A stretch of DNA of 64,000 bases from Octopus sinensis (lineage: Eukaryota). A program made the position numbers and the translations under genes. Each line of letters starts with the position of its first letter. Position 1 is the stretch's first letter. Location: NCBI RefSeq assembly GCF_006345805.1, contig NC_043008.1, positions 63,116,001-63,180,000 of the forward strand, given 5' to 3'. The notes under the pieces were generated by a model. It did not search any database. It saw only the letters and a list, made by a program, of their open reading frames with translations, and was not told where the DNA came from. Positions 2,340 to 59,115 of the stretch are shown here, in pieces.

Positions 2340-5300
2340 TCCGAGAGTGTAGTGGGTGATTTTATGTGCCACCGACACAGGTGCCAGACGAGGCTGGCAA
2401 ACGGCCACGCTCGGATGGTGTTTTTATGTGCCACCGACACAGGTACCAGACGAGGCTGGCAGACGGCCACGCTCGGATGGTGTTTTTATGTGCCACCGAC
2501 ACAGGTGCCAGATGAGGCTGGCAAACGGCCACGATCAGATGGTGTTTGTTACGTGCCCACAGCACGGAGGCCAGTCGATGCGGTACTGGCTACGGCCACG
2601 TTCGGATGGTTTTCTTGTGTGCCACGTGCCACCGGCACTGGTACCACAAAGATACAAATTCCATTGATGTTCATCTATTTTGATTTGTTTTGATTTTCAC
2701 TTGCCTCAACAGGTCTTCACAAGTGTCACAAGAAGGAAGGTATGCACAGGTGGACTGACAACGTCCCAGGTAGGGGCCACAGGTTATGGCCTGACTAGTC
2801 TTGCCGGGTCTTCGGATGGTGTTTTTATGTGCCACCGACACAGGTGCTAGATGAGGCTGGCGAACGGCCACGATCGGATGGTGTTTGTTACGTGCCCACA
2901 GCACGGAGGCCAGTCGGTGCGGTACTGGCTACGGCCACGTTCGGATGGTTTTCTTGTGTGCCACCGGCACTGGGACCACAAAGATACAATTCCATTAATG
3001 TTCATCTATTTTGATTTGTTTTGATTTGATTTGATTTGATTTGTTTTGATTTCATTTTGATTTTGATTTTCACTTGCCTCAACAGGCCTTCACAAGTATC
3101 ACAAGGAAGAAGGTATGCACAGGTGGACTGACTACGTCCCAGGTAGGGACCATGGGATATGGCCTGACTAGTCTTGCCGGGTCTTCGGATGGTGTTTTTA
3201 TGTGCCACCGATACAGGTGCTAGATGAGGCTGGCGAACGGCCACGATCGGATGGTGTTTGTTATGTGCCCACAGCACGATGGCCAGTCGATGCGGTACTG
3301 ACTACGGCCACGTTCGGATGGATTTCTTGTGTGCCACAGGCACTGGTACCACAAAGATACAAATTCCATTGATGTTCATCTATTTTGATTTGATTTGATT
3401 TTCACTTGCCTCAGCAGGTCTTCACAAGTGTCACAAGAAGGAAGGTATGCACAGGTGGACTGACTAGTCTTGCCGGGTCTTCGGAAGGTGTTTTTATGTG
3501 CCACCGATACAGGTGCCAGATGAGGCTGGTGAACGGCCATGATCGGATGGTGTTTGTTACGTGCCCACAGCACGGAGGCCGGTCGATGCGGAACTGGCTA
3601 CGGCCACGTTCGGATGGTTCTCTTGTGTGCCACCGGCACTGGTACCACAAAGTGTGTGCCACCGGCACTGGTACCACAAAGATACAGATTCCATTGATGT
3701 TCATCTATTTTGATTTGTTTTGATTTTCACTTGCCTCAACAGGTCTTCACAAGTGTCACAAGAAGGAAGGTATGTACAGGTGGACTGACTACGTCCCAGG
3801 TAGGGGCTATGGGTTATAGCCTGACTAGTCTTGCGGGTCTTCGGATGGTGTTTTTATGTGCCACCGACACAGGTGCTAGATGAGGAGCTGGTGAACGGCC
3901 ACGATCGGATGGTGTTTGTTTGTGCCCACAGCACGATGGCCAGTGATGCGGTACTGACTACGGCCACGTTCGGATGGATTTCTTGTGTGCCACAGGCACT
4001 GGTACCACAAAGATACAAATTCAATTGATGTTCATCTATTTTGATTTGTTTTGATTTTCACTTGCCTCAACAGGTCTTCACAAGTGTCACAAGAAGGAAG
4101 GTATGTACAGGTGGACTGACTAGTCTTGCAGGTCTTGGGAAGGTGTTTATGTGCCACCGATACAGTGCCAGATGAGGCTCGGTGAACGGCCATGATCGGA
4201 TGGTGTTTGTTACGTTGCCCACAGCACGGAGGCCGGTCGATGCGGAACTGGCTACGGCCACGTTCGGATGGTTCTTTGTGGCACCGGCAATGGTACCACA
4301 AAGTGTGCCACCGGCACTGGTACCACAAAGATACAGATTCCATGATGTTCATCTATTTTGATTTGTTTTGATTTTCACTTGCCTCAACAGGTCTTCACAA
4401 GTGTCACAAGAAGGAAGGTATGTACAGGTGGACGACTACGTCCCAGGTAGGGGCTACGGGTTATAGCCTGACTAGTCTTGCCGGGCTCGGATGTGTTTTT
4501 ATGTGCCACCGCACAGGTGCTAGATGAGGCGGGCGCACGGCCACGATCGGATGGTGTTTGTTATGTCCCACACAGCACGATGGCCAGTGATGCGGTACGC
4601 GACTACGGCCACGTTCGGATGGATTCTTGTGCCACGGCACTGGGTACACCAAAAGATACAACTTCCATTGATGTTCATCTATTTTGATTTGTTTTGATTT
4701 TCACTTGCCTCACAAAGGTCTTCACAAGTGCACAAGAAGGAAGGTATGTAGGTGGACTGACTACGTCAAGGTAGGGGCTATGGGTTATAGCTGACTAGTC
4801 TTGCCGGGTCTCGGATGGTGTTTTTATGTGCCACCGACACAGGTGCTAGATGAGGCTGGCGAACGGCCACGATCGGATGGTGTTTGTTATGTGCCCACAG
4901 CACGATGGCCAGTGATGCGGGGGGTACTGACTACGACCACGTACGATGGATTCTTGGTGCCACGGCACTGGTACCACAAAGATACAAATTCCATTGATGT
5001 TCATCTATTTTGATTTGTTTTGATTTTCACTTGCCTCAACAGGTCTCACAAGTGTCACAAGAAGGAAGGTATGTACAGGTGGACTGACTACGTCCCAGGT
5101 AGGGGCCACGGGTTATGACCTGACTAGTCTTGCCGGGTCTTCGGATGGTGTTTTTACGTGCCACCATGTTCCCACAGCACGGAGGCCAGTCGATGCGGTA
5201 CTGGCTACGGCCACGTTCGGATGGTTCTCTTGTGTGCCACCGGCACTGGTACCACAAAGATACAGATTCCATTGATGTTCATCTATTTTGATTTGTTTTG

Positions 5301-6020
5301 ATTTTCACTTGCCTCAACAGGTCTTCACAAGTGTCACAAGAAGGAAGGTATGCACAGGTGGACTGACTACGTCCCAGGTAGGGGCTATGGGTTATAGCCT
5401 GACTAGTCTTGCCGGGTCTTCGGATGGTGTTTTTATGTGCCACCGACACAGGTGCTAGATGAGGCTGGCGAACGGCCACGATCGGATGGTGTTTGTTATG
5501 TGCCCACAGCACGATGGCCAGTGATGCGGTACTGACTACGGCCACATTCGGATGGATTCTTGTTTGCCACCGGCACTGGTACCACAAAGATACAAATTCC
5601 ATTGATGTTCATCTATTTTGATTTGTTTTGATTTTCACTTGCCTCAACAGGTCTTCACAAGTGTCACAAGAAGGAAGGTATGTACAGGTGTACTGACTAC
5701 GTCCCAGGTAGGGGCCACGGGTTATGACCTGACTAGTCTTGCCGGGTCTTCGGATGGTGTTTTTATGTGCCACCATGTTCCCACAGCACGGAGGCCAGTC
5801 GATGCGGTACTGGCTACGGCCACGTTCGGATGGTTTTCTTGTGTGCCACAGGCACTGGTACCACAAAGATACAAATTCCATTGATGTTCATCTATTTTGA
5901 TTGATTTTCACTTGCCTCAGCAGGTCTTCACAAGTGTCACAAGAAGGAAGGTATGCACAGGTGGATCGACTACGTCCCAGGTAGGGGCCACGGGATATGG
6001 CCTGACTAGTCCTGCCGGGT
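2340..6020. repeat. Tandem array of ~270-370-bp units from the RTE ORF end and 3' UTR (~11 copies)
   Basis: Anchor TTGCCTCA(A/G)CAGGTCTTCACAAG, with minor variants, recurs at about 2701, 3075, 3406, 3732, 4062, 4379, 4706, 5031, 5309, 5639 and 5912. Confidence 0.95.
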
Positions 6021-7424
6021 CCTCTCATGCACAGCACACTTCCATAGGACTCGGTCTTCAGTCATTTCCTTGGTGAGACCTAAAGTTCGAAGGTCGTGCT
6101 TCACCACCTCGTCCCATGTTTTCCTGGGTCTACCTCTTCCACAAGTTCCCTCAACTGCTAGGGTGTAGCACTTTTGCACACAACTATCTTCAGCCATTCT
6201 CGTCACATGACCATACCAGCGCAGTCGTCTCTCTTGCACACCACAACTGACACTTCTTAGGTTCAACTTTTCTCTCAAAGTACTTACACTCTGACGATTA
6301 TGAACACTGACATTACACATCCATCGGAGCATACTGGCTTCATTTCTTGCGAGCTTACGCATATCCTCAGCAGTCACGGCCCATGTTTCACTACCATGTA
6401 GCATGGCTGTACATACACACGCATCATATAGTCTGCCTTTTACTCTTAGCGAGAGGCCTTTTGTCACCAGCAGGGGTAAGAGCTCTCTAAACTTTGCCCA
6501 GGCTATTCTTACTCTAGCAGTTACACTTTCAGCACACCCACCCCGCTACTGACTTGGTCTCCTAGGTAGCGGAAGCTATCAACTACTTCTAGTTTGTCTC
6601 CCTGGAACGTGGTAGAAGTTGGTCTCTGCACATTTCCAGTGTTTATTGCTCCTGAGCATCTGCCACAGACAAAAACTATTTTCTTAGTTAGCCTTCCTTT
6701 GACATTGCTGCACCTCTTATGTGTCCATAGCTTACACTTGGTGCACCTTAGAGTTTCTACCTACACCTTTTTTACAGATCGAGCAGGGCCATCTACCTGA
6801 AGTCGTTTGTGATTGGTCCACCTTCCTACTTATTAGGACTTTGGTTTTGGCTAGGTTGATTCTAAGGCCCTTCGATTCTAATCCTTGTTTCCACACCTGA
6901 AACTTCTCCTCCAGTTCTGATATTGACTCAGCAATTAGAGCAAGGTCATCAGCATAGAGGAGCTCCCAGGGGCATCCTGTCTTGAATTCCTCCGTTATTG
7001 CCTGGAGGACTATGATAAATAGGAGGGGACTGAGGACTGAACCTTGGTGGACCCCAACCTCTACCCGGAATTCTTCACTGTACTCGTTGCCAACCCTCAC
7101 CTTACTAGCAGCGTCTCTGTACATGGCTCGCACAGCTCTCACTAACCATTCATCTATCCCTAGTTTCCTCATTGACCACCAGATAAGGGATCGGGGGACC
7201 CTGTCAAAGGCTTTCTCCAAGTCAACAAAAGCCAGATACAAGGGCTTATCTTTGGCTAGGTATTTCTCCTGCAGCTGTCTTACCAGGAATATAGCATCAG
7301 TAGTACTTTTCCTGGCACGAACCCAAACTGCATATCATCTAAGCTAACTCTCTCTCTAATTAATTGGGCTATAACCCTCTCCGTAACCTTCATTACCTGA
7401 TCCAGCAGCTTGATGCCCCTGTAG

Positions 7425-8440: not shown

Positions 8441-8694
8441 TTATAAATACATGCCACTATCACAAATAGTGTCATTCATTTCCAATCTTCAAGGGAAGTA
8501 TGTTCCTCCTCATACCTTGTTAGGAAGCAAGCGAGTGTTGGTGACAATATAGACATCCATCTGTACAAGAGCTCCCCAAACAAAATCCATCAAACTGATG
8601 CAAGTATGGAAAGTGGATGTTAACAAGGAAAAAGAAGGACGAGGAAAAAGAAGAGAATGACTATTATGATATATGCTTTATTTGTCATCAGGAC

Positions 8695-9245
8695 GTAACA
8701 AACACCATCCGATTGTGGCCGTGCCAGCCTCACCTGGCCTCCGTGCTGGTGGTACGTAAAAAACACCATCTGAGCATGGCCGTTCGTCAGCCTCGTCTGG
8801 CACCTGTGTCGGTGGCACAAAAAAACAACACCATCCGATTGTGGCCGTGCCAGCCTCGCCTGGCCTCTGTGCTGGTGGCACGTAAAAAAACACCATCCGA
8901 GCGTGGCCGTTCACCAGCCTTGTCTGGCACCTGTGTCGGTGGCACATAAAAAACACCATCCAAGCGTGGCCGTTCGCCAACCTCGTCTGGCACCTGTGTC
9001 GGTGGCACATAAAAAACACCATCCGAGCGTGGCCATTCGCCAGTCTTGTCTGGCACCTGTGTCGGTGGCACATAAAAAGCACCCACTACACTCACGGAGT
9101 GGTTGGCGTTAGGAAGGGCATCCAGCAGTAGAAACACTGCCAGATCTGACTGGAGCCTGGTGCAGCCTTCGGGCTTCCCAGACACCAGTTGAACCATCCA
9201 ACCCATGCTAGCATGGAGAACGGACGTTAAACAATGATGATGATG
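8695..9245 (+). mobile_element. 5'-truncated RTE 3' UTR insertion flanked by ~240-bp direct repeats
   Basis: Matches the RTE 3' UTR with ~60-bp subrepeats and a GAT tail. Flanks 8452-8694 and 9246-9487 are near-identical. Confidence 0.9.
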
Positions 9246-15780: not shown

Positions 15781-15965
15781 ATATATTTATATATATATAT
15801 ATATATATATATACATTTTTTTATATATAGAGGGCATTATACATACATGCCAGAAGGCATTATACATACATGCCAAACGCTAAGAGGGACAATCAGTCAT
15901 TTCTACCAAAAATATTACTAATCCCACCGAATGCAATTTTTCAAAGTAAGACATTTAAAAATATA

Positions 15966-16011
15966 GACCTGTATCACAGTGATTTCATACTTATGTAATC
16001 ATCAGCAGGCC
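15966..16011 (-). ncRNA. Type-I hammerhead ribozyme (unit 1)
   Basis: GGCCTG-CTGATGA-T-TAC(ATAA)GTA-T-GAA-ATCAC(T)GTGAT-A-CAGGTC. Confidence 0.85.
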
Positions 16012-16443
16012 TGAATGTATTATAAATAAACAACGACCCTGCCCCGCTTAAGCCGATCAGCTAACTGATCAACATCAACGAAGCACATGGGTGAGTTTAC
16101 ATATACTACATCCGGATAAATGGCAAACTTTTACGAATTGCATTTCGGGAGAGGAAAAGTTTTTTCGGAATAAAAATTTAGCAAATAAGGACAACTACTT
16201 AATAAGGAAAACTTAACAAGAAATTGTCAGGTAGATAGCGTAAAAACCTCATAAGAGAAAAAATTTCGAAAATAATTATTTCTTATTGAACATATTAATT
16301 TATATATAGAGGGCATTATACATACATGCCAGAAGGCATTATACATACATGCCAAACGCTAAGAGGGACAATCAGTCATTTCTACCAAAAATATTACTAA
16401 TCCCACCGAATGCAATTTTTCAAAGTAAGACATTAAAAATATA

Positions 16444-16489
16444 GACCTGTATCACAGTGATTTCATACTTACGTAATCATCAGCAGGCC
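16444..16489 (-). ncRNA. Type-I hammerhead ribozyme (unit 2)
   Basis: Same as unit 1, with a GUAA (GNRA) loop in stem II. Confidence 0.87.
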
Positions 16490-16996
16490 TGAATGTATTA
16501 TAAATAAACAACGACCCTGCCCCGCTTAAGCCGATCAGCTAACTGATCAACATCAACGAAGCACATGGGTGAGTTTACATATACTACATCCGGATAAATG
16601 GCAAACTTTTACGAATTGCATTTCGGGAGAGGAAAAGTTTTTTCGGAATAAAAATTTAGCAATTAAGGACAACTACTTAATAAGGAAAACTTAACAAGAA
16701 ATTGTCAGGTAGATAGCGTAAAAACCTCATAAGAGAAAAAATTTCGAAAATAATTATTTCTTATTGAACATATTAATTTATATATAGAGGGCATTATACA
16801 TACATGTCAGAAGGCATTATACATACATGCCAAACGCTAAGAGGGACAATCAGTCATTTCTATATATATATACATATATTAAAATCAAATTACAATGAAC
16901 GTAAACAAACAAACCAAGTTTGCTTTAGAAGCATTGAGATGTCTTAGAAAGTTAAAGAAGTGATATTAAATTCTCAAACGCAGGATAATGCTAATA

Positions 16997-40140: not shown

Positions 40141-40964
40141 GTACCTAATCTATCAGATCTTTTCCCCAAACTGCAATGGTTAAATTACTGGAATGTAAAC
40201 AAACCAACACCGATTGTCAAGTGGAGGTGGTGAGGAGACAAGTCTCACATACACATCAACACACACACACACACACACACACTTCTTACCACACAGCTAT
40301 ACCTGTGTCATCACCATCGTCATTGTTATTAGTCGTCATCTCATTGTTGTCATCAACATCTTCCTCATCATCATCATCCTCACAACCACCACCATTGCCA
40401 TTATCATCACCATGATCATTACCACCACCACCACCACCATCACCCTCTTCTTCCACCTCAGTATCCTCACCATCATTCTTCCTTTTCCTCATTGTCATCG
40501 CTGTCATCATCGCCATTGTCATCAATGTTTTAACGTCAACTTTTCTATGCTTGCATAGATCAGATGAGAATATGTTGGCACAGACATTCCTATGGTGAAG
40601 TGACCTTTCTGATGTTGACCCTGACTTGTTTCCAAGCAAACAAAAATAATTCCTCTGCTAATTGAACAAGATACATCCCAGACTAGGTTACATGGAAATA
40701 AAACAGCCTTTTGTTTACAATTAGCAAATACGCATGAAAATATGTGAAAACACAAACTCACACACACACACACACACTCACGCCCATAAACACACACACA
40801 CTCAGACACACAAAAGCAAACACATGCAAAGATATATGGATGTATTCAACAAGTTTCTTCAGCTTCAGTTTACCAAATTTTCAAATAAAGTATTGGTCAC
40901 CTCCTGGCTATAGTACTGTATGCTAGCTGACAGCACCCATGCCTGAGGATTGAACCTACTAACC

Positions 40965-41565
40965 TATTTCTTTACTACCCACAAGGGTCTAAACACAGAG
41001 AGGACAAACAAGGACAGATAAACGGATTAAGTCGATTATATCGACCCCAGTGCGTAACTAGTACTTATTTAATCGACCCCGAAAGGATGAAAGGCAAAGT
41101 TGACCTCGGCGAAATTTGAACTCAGAACGTAGTGGCAGACAAAATACCTGTTTCTTTACTACACACAAGGGGCTAAACACAGAGGAGACAAACAAGGACA
41201 GACAAACGGATTAAGTTGATTATATCGACCCCAGTGTGTAACTGGTACTTAATTTATCGACCCGGAAAGGATGAAAGGCAAAGTCGACCTCCGCGGAATT
41301 TGAACTCAGAACGTAGCTGCAGACGAAATACCAATTTCTTTACTACCCACAAGGGGCTAAACACAGAGGAGACAAACAAGGACAGACAGACGGATTAAGT
41401 CGATTATATCGGGTCCAGTGGGTAACTGGTACTTATTTAATTGACCCAGAAAGGATGAAAGGCAAAATCGACCTCGGCGGAATTTGAACTCAGAACATAA
41501 CGGCAGACGAAGTACGGCTATGCATTTCACCCGGTGTGCTAACATTTCTGCCAGCTCGCTGCCTT
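40965..41565 (-). mobile_element. SINE family B with 3' part triplicated (~185-bp units)
   Basis: TTTCTTTACTAC(C/A)CACAAGGG recurs at about 40967, 41151 and 41335; a single head lies at ~41520-41563. Confidence 0.9.
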
Positions 41566-56219: not shown

Positions 56220-56408
56220 TATGGTTTCTATGGCATATGTGTTCCCCAGCTGGACGGGACGCCAGTCCATCGCAGTGTAATTCAAGAAACAGGAAGAAAG
56301 AGTGAGAGAAAGTTGGGGTGAAACACACACAATGCCCAGTCTGGGAATTGAAACTGTGATCCTCCAACCATGAGTCTGCTTCCCTAACTACTAGGCCATT
56401 GCGCCTCC
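56220..56408 (-). mobile_element. SINE family C, internally deleted
   Basis: GGAGGCGCAATGGCCTAGTAG head on the minus strand. Confidence 0.8.
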
Positions 56409-56440
56409 ATATATATAAATATATATATATATACATACAT

Positions 56441-56477
<37 letters not shown>

Positions 56478-56504
56478 CATATTTATATATATATGTGTGT
56501 GTGT

Positions 56505-56904
56505 TAAAATCTATAATACAAGATGAACACACGTGAAGAAATGTGCTGAATTAAAGATGTAGCCCGCACCTAAATAATACTCACCCTGCCCTAATTACTC
56601 AACGAAACTAGCCAATCTACCACAAGCAAACCTCTACCCAACGAATTTACCAGTGCAAGAACAAAATTTCAATGTAAGAATTACCAATTTGTTTACATTA
56701 CCATCACATATGTATCAATCATTCTCGCATCCTAATCGATGCATCTATCTATACTCGCATTCTGAAGAGATTTACTTACTCCAGTAAATCAAAACAATCG
56801 TAAATGCCACCCTCATCTCTGCTTCTTACTTCTTTGTTACTTATTTAATTAAAGACATGCCAGCGTAAACCATGAGTTTCTCATTGTTATTATATCCATT
56901 TTCT

Positions 56905-56910
<6 letters not shown>
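56505..56910 (+). mobile_element. Probable Penelope 3'-end/pLTR fragment between (TA)n tracts
   Basis: Frameshifted 'REEM..IK' and 'SPHLN' resemble a GIY-YIG C-terminus, followed by a hammerhead. Confidence 0.6.
56757..56807 (+). ncRNA. Type-I hammerhead with two CpG-type mutations
   Basis: GCATT-CTGAAGA-GATTTACT(TACTCC)AGTAAATC-AAA-ACAATCGT-A-AATGC. G12 reads A, and stem III is one change from the palindrome ACGATCGT. Confidence 0.75.
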
Positions 56911-56997
<87 letters not shown>

Positions 56998-57281
56998 TAT
57001 ATATAATTAAAATTGAGGGAGATAAATTAATATTAATTTTAATATCAATTTAAAACCAGTAGTCCAGCATTCAAAAAATCTGAGGATCAGAGAAAATTCA
57101 AATATATGTGTATATTGGCAGGGCTGGCCTGCTAGGTAGCCGGCCAGAATGCTAGAAGAAGATCTCAACGATCAAACAACAACGATCAAACTACAAGGGA
57201 ATTCTCTAGAGGAAGAATTCAGCGAACACCAGAACCAACTTTGGCGGCAGGACATATGAGAAATTAATAAATAACAGACTA

Positions 57282-57356
57282 AATGCATACCTCGGTTTCG
57301 GTCTTAACAAAAGAATTACTTGCATAATTCAGTGTCCGTGACTTCTTCAGTACATT
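57282..57356 (-). ncRNA. Hammerhead with extended stem II (copy 1)
   Basis: Reverse complement of the 58752-58827 motif with a 1-nt indel. Confidence 0.7.
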
Positions 57357-57824
57357 CGGTCCTCGAGATGCAAACTGCAAGACTAACCCCAGCCTCTGTG
57401 TCAAGACAGACACGTCTTTAGTCTTACTGATTACATCGGAATAAAATTTCAAATGTCTTGGTTCTGCGCGCTGAGAGACTCCTGAAGCGAAGGGCTGCAG
57501 TGAATAATTCACTGCAGATAGTGCTTACAACTATGGAACGTATTTATATTTAAATATTTAAAAATTGAGGGAGATAAATTAATATTAATTTTAATATCAA
57601 TTTAAAACCAGTAGTCCAGCATTCAAAAAATCTGAGGAGTCAGAGAAAATTCAAATATATGTGTATATTGGCAGGGCTGGCCTGCTAGGTAGCCGGCCAG
57701 AATGCTAGAAGAAGATCATCAACGATCAACTACAAGGGAAATTCTCTAGAGGAAGAAATCAGCGAACACCAGAACCAACTTTGGCGGGCAGGACATATGA
57801 GAAATTAAATAAATAACAGACTTA

Positions 57825-57902
57825 AATGCATACCTCGGTTTCGGTCTTAACAAAAGAATTACTTGCATAATTCAAGTGTGTCCGTGACTTCTTCAGTACA
57901 TT
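57825..57902 (-). ncRNA. Hammerhead with extended stem II (copy 2)
   Basis: Reverse complement of the 58752-58827 motif with a 2-nt insertion. Confidence 0.7.
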
Positions 57903-58210
57903 CGGTCCTCGAGATGCAAACTGAAAGACTAACCCCAGCTCTCTGTGTCCAGACAGACACGTGCTTAGTCTTACTGATTACATCGGGAATAAAATTTCAA
58001 ATGTCTTGGTTCTGGCGCGCTGAGAGACTCCTGAAGCGAAGGGCTGCAGTGAATAATTCACTGCGGATAGTGCTTACAACTAGGGAACGTATTTATTTAA
58101 ATATTTAAAGATTTGAAATTTTATTCCCGATGTAATCAGTAAGACTAAGCACGTGTCTGTCTTGACACAGAGAGCTGGGGTTAGTCTTGCGGTTTGCATC
58201 TCGAGGACCG

Positions 58211-58285
58211 AATGTACTGAAAAGTCACGGACACTTGAATTATGCAAGTAATTCTTTTGTTAAGACTGAAACCGAGGTATGCATT
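58211..58285 (+). ncRNA. Hammerhead with extended stem II (copy 3, core G missing)
   Basis: AATGTA-CTGAAAAGTC...GACT-GAA-ACCGAGGT-A-TGCATT. Confidence 0.55.
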
Positions 58286-58751
58286 TAAGTCTGTTATTTA
58301 TTTAATTTCTCATATGTCCTGCCCGCCAAAGTTGGTTCTGGTGTTCGCTGAATTCTTCCTCTAGAGAATTTCCTTGTATTTGATCGTTGATGATCTTCTT
58401 CTAGCATTCTGGCCGGCTACCTAGCAGGCCAGCCCTGCCAATATACACATATATTTGAATTTACTCTGACTCCTCAGATTTTTTGAATGCTGGACTACTG
58501 GTTAAATTGATATTAAAATTAATATTAATTTATCTCCCTCAATTTTTAAATATTTAAATAAATACGTTCCCTAGTTGTAAGCACTATCCGCAGTGAATTA
58601 TTCACTGCAGCCCTTCGCTTCAGGAGTCTCTCAGCGCGCCAGAACCAAGACATTTGAAATTTTATTCCCGATGTAATCAGTAAGACTAAGCACGTGTCTG
58701 TCTTGACACAGAGAGCTGGGGTTAGTCTTTCAGTTTGCATCTCGAGGACCG

Positions 58752-58827
58752 AATGTACTGAAGAAGTCACGGACACTTGAATTATGCAAGTAATTCTTTT
58801 GTTAAGACCGAAACCGAGGTATGCATT
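58752..58827 (+). ncRNA. Hammerhead with extended stem II (copy 4)
   Basis: AATGTA-CTGAAGA-AGTC[37 nt including an ACTTG/CAAGT hairpin]GACC-GAA-ACC(GA)GGT-A-TGCATT. Confidence 0.75.
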
Positions 58828-58981
58828 TAAGTCTGTTATTTATTTAATTTCTCATATGTCCTGCCCGCCAAAGTTGGTTCTGGTGTTCGCTGAATTCTTC
58901 CTCTAGAGAATTCCCTTGTAGTTTGATCGTTTTATCTTCTTCTAGCATTCTGGCCGGCTACCTAGCAGGCCAGCCCTGCCA

Positions 58982-59043
<62 letters not shown>

Positions 59044-59115
59044 CATTTATATTTAATATGGGATAAATTTTTTGTTTTTCGAAAAAATTTTATCAAATCT
59101 TTTAAAGGTTAAATT

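What the first reader, a model, noticed from the sequence alone, without database searches (positions are those of the whole stretch)
57005..58988. ~2-kb tandem-plus-foldback array of ~550-bp units carrying four hammerheads with an unusually long stem-II insertion
Seen: two direct units followed by two inverted partial units form a hairpin with ~870-bp arms and a ~110-bp loop, bounded by long (TA)n tracts. Each unit has stem I AAUGUA/UGCAUU, core CUGAAGA, and stem II GUC/GAC enclosing ~37 nt with its own hairpin, then GAA, ACC(GA)GGU and a GUA cleavage site. Known: tandem and inverted pLTRs with hammerheads characterise Penelope-like elements. Inference: transcription from either strand could release a unit-length RNA and also form long dsRNA. 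The branched stem II would be missed by short-loop motif searches.
Basis: partly seen in the sequence, partly recalled or inferred. Interest (0 to 1): 0.85.

Follow-up and report, generated by a model that had tools for sequence, protein, structure and literature searches.

The report
Penelope-type retrozyme with long-armed hammerhead
This is likely a single insertion of a common, non-coding, ~550-base mobile repeat, laid out in the tandem-plus-inverted pattern already known for Penelope-like retroelements; its predicted self-cutting RNA (hammerhead) has one arm about twice the usual length, which the Rfam search missed, and the rest is ordinary.

Summary
The array is in the sequence: two ~550-bp units (hammerheads on the minus strand) joined head-to-head to an 878-bp inverted copy, with a 108-bp loop, between (TA)n tracts. 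Three of four hammerhead cores are intact; the third copy lacks G8. Stem II holds 44-47 nt and folds as one long interrupted hairpin, not a branch. Contigs of four public runs show a large repeat family with the same head-to-tail joint, other strand-switch joints, and two recurrent TA-adjoined ends that equal this array's two outer ends, i.e. a one-sided ~100-bp 'tail'. Tandem units, an inverted 5' copy, a one-sided tail, (TA)n targets and a type I hammerhead with palindromic stem III are the published Penelope-like layout (closest: Hydra clade; non-LTR retrozymes). No ORF or parent element was found; cleavage is untested; this exact fold joint was not seen in independent data. A read-through RNA is predicted to bury the ribozymes in dsRNA, so cutting and dsRNA would be alternatives. 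New: a family-wide long stem II (published animal examples read: at most 23 nt; spike-moss precedents of similar length exist) and a long tail. Verdict: new variant of a known kind, interest 0.3.

The parts
56909..57005 (.). left (TA)n target tract
   Evidence: sequence
57005..57555 (-). unit U1, complete monomer; its 3' end (hammerhead sense) abuts the left TA tract; many private single-base deletions and a 14-bp duplication
57005..57104 (-). ~100-bp one-sided 'tail': the stretch between the family's two recurrent TA-adjoined ends, present at the left end of the array and absent from the right end
   Evidence: loose ends at reference places 57554-57556 and 57655 (table 7); end sequences
57281..57357 (-). 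type I hammerhead motif 1, core intact, 44 nt between CUGANGA and GAA, predicted cut after 57288
57556..58109 (-). unit U2, complete monomer
57824..57903 (-). type I hammerhead motif 2, core intact, 47 nt in stem II, predicted cut after 57831
58003..58110 (.). 108-bp unpaired loop of the fold-back (5' part of U2 in hammerhead sense); fold joint at 58109/58111 with one extra base
58111..58551 (+). unit U3, 5'-truncated inverted copy starting at the place equivalent to 58002
58210..58286 (+). hammerhead motif 3, broken as written (G8 missing; C-to-T change at a CpG before G12)
   Evidence: not found by the descriptor
58552..58988 (+). unit U4, ends at the family's inner 3' end (equivalent to 57655), so lacks the tail
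58751..58828 (+). type I hammerhead motif 4, core intact, predicted cut after 58821
58765..58809 (+). long stem II of motif 4: unbranched hairpin, three short helices, two internal loops, 4-nt terminal loop
58982..59042 (.). right (TA)n target tract

Best explanation
This is likely one insertion of a non-autonomous Penelope-like element (a non-LTR retrozyme): a high-copy, non-coding ~550-bp unit with a type I hammerhead motif that would be copied into (TA)n tracts by the reverse transcriptase and endonuclease of an autonomous Penelope-like partner, inferred but not found. Shown: unit structure, hammerhead motif, large family, head-to-tail joints and two fixed TA-adjoined ends in independent data. 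Inferred from the literature on these elements: a tandem copy is transcribed; two hammerheads, helped by pairing of their palindromic stem III strands (or by the element's protein), cut out a ~545-nt monomer that may circularise; reverse transcription starts at one of two internal sites about 100 bp apart, primed by nicked TA-rich DNA, and runs for more than one unit; both target ends were extended on such a template, giving two arms that point outward, meet head-to-head, and differ by the tail. The long stem II is a family trait that is likely tolerated rather than catalytic. At this locus an RNA that reads through from outside is predicted to form an ~860-bp hairpin that blocks the ribozymes; only RNA started inside the array could cut.
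For: Layout matches the published one: partial tandems, an inverted 5'-truncated copy at the 5' end, a tail often at one end only, microsatellite targets (PMC8557442 passages). Family data (4 of 24 listed runs laid): 965, 876, 432 and 30 contigs laid; TA-run loose ends at 57554-57556 (X1 7 contigs, X3 5, X9 1) and at 57655 (X1 3, X8 3), which are the places where this array's left and right ends fall; head-to-tail joints in X1 and X9; strand-switch joints 57707/57937 (X1, X3) and 57926/58002 (X8). Two adjacent internal start sites of reverse transcription explain the tail in the one element tested in vitro (PMC11167929). Hammerhead anatomy fits Hydra-clade motifs: 19 of 26 rows of File S2 have an extra base on each side at the foot of stem II, stem III is a 3-4 bp palindrome, and 26 of 27 Hydra families list (TA)n targets. 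The stem III octamer cannot fold alone but pairs with itself at -6.6 kcal/mol. Of the listed family variants, the only one in the core is at the free position 7 (A to U, 28-31% of depth in X1, X3, X8; a C in one X3 loose end); the others in the motif are a wobble-compatible change, a loop change and internal-loop changes. All four copies share letters that the runs read otherwise (57801 at 100% of depth, 57779 at 64-100%), which points to one template. The 543-nt cut-to-cut RNA folds compactly as a circle (z -4.2, 40 shuffles). Two consecutive intact motifs meet the working definition of a retrozyme, and lengths of 51-972 bp are on record (bioRxiv 10.64898/2026.07.22.740005).
Against: No reverse transcriptase or GIY-YIG frame in or near the array (0 relevant Pfam hits in 51 frames), so the partner and clade are inferred. 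The catalytic fold is 6-8 kcal/mol above the minimum-energy fold in each intact copy. No two-sided compensatory change was seen; variants are unphased; with about 40 listed variants over ~560 bases, none in 11 core positions is not significant by itself; 6 variant rows and 182 loose-end rows were not shown. Only 1 of 9 such dimers cleaved in vitro in the 2026 preprint, and cleavage was not needed for insertion by the anole element. The tail here (~100 bp) is longer than the published 30-40 bp. The exact fold joint was not bridged in any run laid. Joints were called at 82% likeness, where the tool warns of joints from other repeats.
Confidence: 0.72

Rival explanations
1. The units are simply the 3' ends (pseudo-LTRs) of an autonomous Penelope-like element, heavily 5'-truncated and laid in partial tandem with an inverted copy; there is no separate non-autonomous family.
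For: Most Penelope-like insertions are 5'-truncated and form such tandems. The neighbour at 56505-56908 looks like such an end. The unit's 5' start reads weakly like an endonuclease C-terminus across a frameshift (resemblance by eye only).
Against: All three head-to-tail or head positions in the array stop at the same unit boundary, and the same joint is in X1 and X9, as expected of a closed monomer; no ORF trace.
Confidence: 0.15
2. The tandem family is real but the fold-back at this locus is an assembly or chimeric-read artefact.
For: Copies differ mostly by single-base indels (U1 against the others: 10-12 indel events and 3-5 substitutions per ~350 bp), as in poorly polished long reads; several U2 letters are contradicted by 100% of depth in all runs; no contig bridged the joint with 31 letters on both sides; such structures are known to trouble assemblies.
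Against: A mirror read would make U4 match U1 and U3 match U2; at 7 substitution sites where U1 and U2 differ U4 follows U2 at 5 and U1 at 2, and at 57924 U2 and U4 share a letter that U1, U3 and about 95% of the family lack. The right end falls exactly on an independent family end (57655). Other strand-switch joints occur in short-read contigs of three runs, one reusing 58002.
Confidence: 0.08
3. A DNA-level event (fold-back repair or inverted duplication at a fragile TA tract, or a small DNA transposon with long inverted ends) made the palindrome from a satellite whose hammerhead is a relic.
For: (TA)n tracts are breakage-prone (general knowledge); the whole array has the outline of long terminal inverted repeats.
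Against: The arms end at two different family-fixed ends; the fold lies inside the unit and is asymmetric; position 7 varies while other core positions do not; two other hammerhead-bearing families in the window also sit in TA tracts.
Confidence: 0.05

Closest known systems
Non-LTR retrozymes of animals (Cervera and de la Pena 2020, PMC7229834, passages and section 14 read; Li, Clavereau and Pollet 2026, bioRxiv 10.64898/2026.07.22.740005, parts 1-3 of 5 read)
   Same: Non-coding tandem monomers, one type I hammerhead per unit, low GC (38.5%), large family, compact predicted circle; mussel examples also lack the usual loop 1-loop 2 contacts.
   Different: Monomer ~550 bp against 170-400 nt in the 2020 paper (within the 51-972 bp of the preprint); stem II of 44-47 nt; inverted arm and tail were not mentioned in the passages searched; circular RNA and cleavage not shown here.
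Hydra clade of Penelope-like elements (Craig et al. 2021, PMC8557442; passages, File S1 Hydra sheet, File S2, and parts 24 and 52 of 59 of the supplement read)
   Same: (TA)n targets; hammerhead near the 3' end with an extra base each side of the foot of stem II and a 3-4 bp palindromic stem III; 5'-truncated inverted copy at the 5' end (noted for Penelope-13_HM); one-sided tail.
   Different: No ORF here; stem II about twice as long or more; tail ~100 bp against 30-40 bp; the listed octopus Hydra-1_Obim hammerhead has another sequence.
Hammerheads of pseudo-LTRs (Cervera and de la Pena 2014, PMC4209133; parts 1-2 of 4 of the text and parts 1-2 of 3 of the supplement read)
   Same: Type I topology, unpaired base after A9, G-C first pair, palindromic stem III suited to dimers, pairs of motifs on opposite strands 100-700 bp apart.
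   Different: In all 56 aligned examples stem II plus loop is at most 23 nt; here 44-47 nt, with an added C before G12 and a 7-bp stem I that can extend by 4 bp.
PLE-X1 hammerheads of spike mosses (File S2 of PMC8557442)
   Same: Long stem II: loop 2 of 35 and 29 nt, so a long arm II in a Penelope-like element is already in print, flagged as deviating.
   Different: Autonomous, endonuclease-less, rDNA-targeted plant elements; unrelated sequence.

Membership tests
Type I hammerhead ribozyme | Conserved core CUGANGA, GAA, A15.1-U16.1, H17 in a three-stem junction | tested here: met
   3 of 4 copies; 2 of 3000 shuffles pass; fourth copy lacks G8
Type I hammerhead ribozyme | Pairing of stems kept across family variants | tested here: inconclusive
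   Listed variants keep pairs or fall in loops, but all are one-sided and unphased
Type I hammerhead ribozyme | Self-cleavage at the GUA site | not testable with these tools
   Only contigs, no raw RNA reads, were offered
Type I hammerhead ribozyme | Match to an Rfam hammerhead model | tested here: not met
   No match at gathering score in the window nor at E up to 10 in 56400-59100; the two other hammerhead motifs of the window were missed as well, so this says more about the models
Non-LTR retrozyme | Two or more consecutive tandem units, each with a complete type I hammerhead | tested here: met
   U1 and U2; head-to-tail joint also in X1 and X9
Non-LTR retrozyme | No coding capacity | tested here: met
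   Six frames of U2 interrupted by stops; no Pfam hit
Non-LTR retrozyme | Dispersed high-copy family | tested here: met
   Hundreds of variant contigs per DNA run with differing flanks; depth is not a copy number
Non-LTR retrozyme | Expressed as monomeric circular RNA | not testable with these tools
   Contigs cannot tell a circle from a tandem joint
Penelope-like element (autonomous) | ORF with telomerase-like reverse transcriptase and GIY-YIG endonuclease | tested here: not met
   None in 51 frames from 14-19 kb and 52-64 kb; the only reverse transcriptase found is at 6732-7331, far away
Penelope-like element (autonomous) | Partial tandem with inverted 5'-truncated copy and one-sided tail | tested here: met
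   against PMC8557442; tail ~100 bp rather than 30-40 bp
Hydra clade | Reverse-transcriptase phylogeny and C-terminal endonuclease | not testable with these tools
   No ORF, no genome held
Hydra clade | (TA)n target and Hydra-type hammerhead anatomy | tested here: met
   but (TA)n targets are shared with Naiads
Naiad clade | Sequence kinship to the 3' UTR of octopus Naiads; lack of a canonical hammerhead | tested here: not met
   Four short motifs of the unit gave 0 hits in the supplement (line breaks could hide a hit); the 3' ends of Naiad_Obim, Naiad_Ovul and Naiad_Omin look unrelated by eye

The most novel reading that the evidence does not exclude
The long stem II is a selected module that defines a distinct class of animal hammerheads: it docks on the extended stem I or on the dimer partner and sets the cleavage rate. 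Because standard descriptors cap this spacer at about 17 nt, a whole layer of retrozymes, and perhaps some Penelope-like families scored as having only a 'half core' with the second half 35-50 nt away, would in fact carry working ribozymes. The ~100-bp tail would mark two widely spaced start sites of reverse transcription, and the reused fold point at 58002 a preferred 5' end.
Probability: 0.15. Interest if true: 0.6.

Novelty: new variant of a known kind. Interest (0 to 1): 0.3.

Why it matters
The layout adds nothing new in kind, but it is a compact natural record of how Penelope-like elements insert: both arms end at family-fixed sites in TA tracts and meet head-to-head. If the long-armed hammerhead cuts, motif searches with short stem II limits undercount ribozymes in animal genomes, and the statement that some Penelope-like families lack hammerheads would need a recheck. 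No description of cephalopod retrozymes turned up in two searches, but the host is my recalled guess, most subscription papers are not held, Lunse et al. (PMC5785218) could not be read, and Repbase, Dfam and the octopus repeat library were not searched.

Tried and rejected
Own genome: none held. Rfam: no hammerhead match; weak microRNA matches are due to TA/CA runs. Long-stem-II pattern in viral contigs: 0; in metagenome contigs: 2 loci, identical around the match, inside an open reading frame, without stem I and without likeness to the unit, rejected as chance. Family motif in prokaryote genomes: 0. Expression: no RNA holder listed; X9 is only guessed to be RNA and holds TA-flanked ends, so nothing is drawn from it. 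The exact fold joint: no cover in the contigs laid, which proves nothing; the one-base deletion at 58115 in three runs reads better as the tandem joint. Branched stem II: rejected. A fixed GNRA tetraloop: weakened, since GCAA and GUAA fit but a loose end in X1 and X9 implies AUAA. The C-to-T change in U3 as a compensatory pair: rejected, it is a CpG transition in the copy with the broken core. Naiad parentage: no support. Bacterial promoter scan of the loop: 0 sites and not suited to an animal. Earlier findings for this sequence or genome: none. A search for 'extended stem II' gave one engineering paper; 'long stem II' occurred in none of the 15 listed of 26 papers. PMC13282606 (passages only) has no mention of ribozymes in its main text; its supplement was listed but not read. 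Supplements of the bioRxiv preprint are closed; its sample had no mollusc.

Full report
Observation. The region 57005-58988 holds two direct units of about 550 bp (U1, U2) followed by an 878-bp inverted copy of 57102-58002 (U3 without its first ~108 bp, then U4 without its last ~100 bp), with a 108-bp loop and (TA)n tracts on both sides. A descriptor scan of both strands of the window with a free stem II length found type I hammerheads at 57350 (-), 57896 (-) and 58758 (+), with 44, 47 and 45 nt between CUGANGA and GAA. The fourth copy lacks G8. The descriptor passes 2 of 3000 shuffles of the unit. Rfam finds no hammerhead here. In hammerhead sense the two arms point outward, their 5' ends meet at the fold and their 3' ends touch the TA tracts.

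The hammerhead. Stem I has 7 bp and can extend by 4 bp beyond an internal loop. Stem II is one interrupted hairpin: 3 bp, internal loop, 4 bp, internal loop, 7 bp, 4-nt loop (z -2.67); it is not branched. An extra A follows A9, as is usual in pseudo-LTR hammerheads (PMC4209133), and an extra C precedes G12; 19 of 26 Hydra-clade rows in File S2 of PMC8557442 have an extra base on both sides at this place, and natural U-U mismatches there are reported (PMC3088659 passages). The stem III octamer does not fold alone but pairs with a second copy at -6.6 kcal/mol, which fits the dimer mode described for these motifs; a 2-bp stem with a tetraloop, as in invertebrate monomer-active motifs, is the alternative. 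The catalytic fold is not the minimum-energy fold in any intact copy. Activity is untested, and only 1 of 9 comparable dimers cut in the 2026 preprint.

The family. No genome is held. The unit is held by 20 listed public runs of 8 studies and 4 coded organisms. I laid 4 of the 24 listed runs on 57548-58145 at 82% likeness: 965, 876, 432 and 30 contigs, summed depth 10^4-10^5 in the three large runs against roughly 4-400 for the single contigs listed. The tool warns that this is no copy number; it does show a large, varied family. Loose ends that run into TA repeats cluster at 57554-57556 (X1, X3, X9) and 57655 (X1, X8); 24 of 206 loose-end rows were shown. These two places are where the array's left and right ends lie, so the array carries a ~100-bp extension at one end only. 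Head-to-tail joints stand in X1 and X9. Strand-switch joints stand at 57707/57937 (one contig each in X1 and X3) and 57926/58002 (one contig in X8; by its length and depth it is record 22, a head-to-head joint that reuses this array's break at 58002). The array's own joint was not bridged. Within the hammerhead the listed changes are A to U at position 7 (28-31% of depth in the three large runs), GAC to GGC in the first helix (pair kept), GCAA to GUAA, and internal-loop changes; loose ends show further subfamilies, one with C at position 7 and one whose three changes in the top helix would keep pairing if its 3' strand is as in the reference. All of this is one-sided and unphased, so it fits a kept structure without proving it.

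How it most likely works. Craig et al. (PMC8557442) describe Penelope-like insertions as partial tandems, often with an inverted 5'-truncated copy at the 5' end and a 30-40-bp tail at one end, with microsatellite targets. Frangieh et al. (PMC11167929, parts 1-2 of 4 read) showed for one element that both strands of AT-rich DNA are cut and extended and that reverse transcription starts at two adjacent internal sites, which explains the tail. I infer that this array arose in one event: both target ends were extended on a more-than-unit or circular RNA, one from each start site, and the two cDNA 5' ends were joined. Letters shared by all four copies but rare or absent in the runs (57801, 57779) support one template. 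The unit has no coding frame and no reverse transcriptase lies near, so it would borrow the enzymes of an autonomous partner, as proposed for non-LTR retrozymes. The leftward strand has two intact motifs and would release 543 nt, which folds compactly as a circle (z -4.2; the opposite strand also scores -2.9, so part of this is palindromic AT-rich sequence). A transcript of the whole array is predicted to form about 860 long-range pairs that take in 70-74 of 74 hammerhead bases, so read-through gives dsRNA and not cleavage; cleavage would need an internal start, which I could not test.

Artefact check. The copies differ mainly by single-base indels, most in U1, and some U2 letters are contradicted by all runs, so base quality in the array is doubtful and the loss of G8 in U3 may be an error. 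A plain mirror read is disfavoured: U4 follows U2 rather than its mirror partner U1 at 5 of 7 substitution sites, though most of these could be private errors of U1, and only 57924 is a shared non-family letter; the right end sits on an independent family end.

Comparison and novelty. It works like, and by the testable criteria is filed as, a non-LTR retrozyme of Penelope-like origin; it is not an autonomous Penelope-like element, and the Hydra clade is the best guess for the partner on anatomy alone. The long stem II exceeds all 56 animal examples in Fig. S3 of PMC4209133 (at most 23 nt) and the 7-17-nt spacer of a published descriptor, but spike-moss PLE-X1 hammerheads with loops of 35 and 29 nt are in print, and eight Naiad families are noted with a second half core 35-50 nt away. 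The octopus Naiad 3' ends look unrelated to this unit. The host is probably an octopus; this rests on my recall of the repeat at 40962-41515 and on no call. The same window has two more hammerhead-bearing families in TA tracts, so such elements are common here. Verdict: new variant of a known kind; interest 0.3.

Noticed in passing
window 15820-16862 (-): A second, unrelated tandem (478 bp, 2.2 copies, 99% alike) between TA runs, each unit with an intact short-armed type I hammerhead (cores at 16005 and 16483), U-U at the foot of stem II and a palindromic stem III (self-duplex -9.1 kcal/mol); the unit folds as a circle at z -6.8. Looks like an ordinary, younger retrozyme that Rfam also misses.
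   Followed up: partly
window 56505-56908 (+): A third family directly left of the array, sharing its TA tract tail-to-tail: a single ~400-bp end with a degenerate hammerhead at 56757-56807 (G12 replaced by A). Its first codons read KMNTREEMC-stop, which by eye resembles the endonuclease C-terminus of Hydra-clade elements.
   Followed up: partly
window 58002 / 58111: The fold point is reused in an independent head-to-head joint in run X8 (one contig, depth about 10), and the arm starts with ATT in AT-rich sequence, the motif cut by the anole element's endonuclease. May mark a preferred 5' end or nick site.
   Followed up: partly
window 57833 to about 57708 (-): A possible splice donor overlaps the predicted cleavage triplet, with pyrimidine-rich acceptors downstream; introns overlap hammerheads in other Penelope-like elements. 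No such skip was listed.
   Followed up: no
window 57102-57150, 57490-57515, 57572-57600 and their copies: The unit has several other short near-perfect palindromes or hairpins outside the hammerhead; one could be the stem-loop at which reverse transcription starts.
   Followed up: no
window 6006-7334 (-): Broken LINE-type reverse transcriptase (RVT_1, E 3.9e-25), likely of the RTE kind (recalled), unrelated to the array.
   Followed up: no
window 3056-6021 and 8693-9083: Long arrays of 270-330-bp and 62-63-bp units, probably SINE-derived tandems.
   Followed up: no
window 40962-41515: Three 184-bp copies that I recall as an octopus SINE; the only basis for my guess of the host.
   Followed up: no
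supplement of PMC8557442, 3' ends of Naiad_Obim and Naiad_Ovul: Both carry a conserved ~100-nt structured-looking block with a GAAA box before a CUGAUGA box, near the end; worth a test as a permuted or long-armed ribozyme (by eye only).
   Followed up: no
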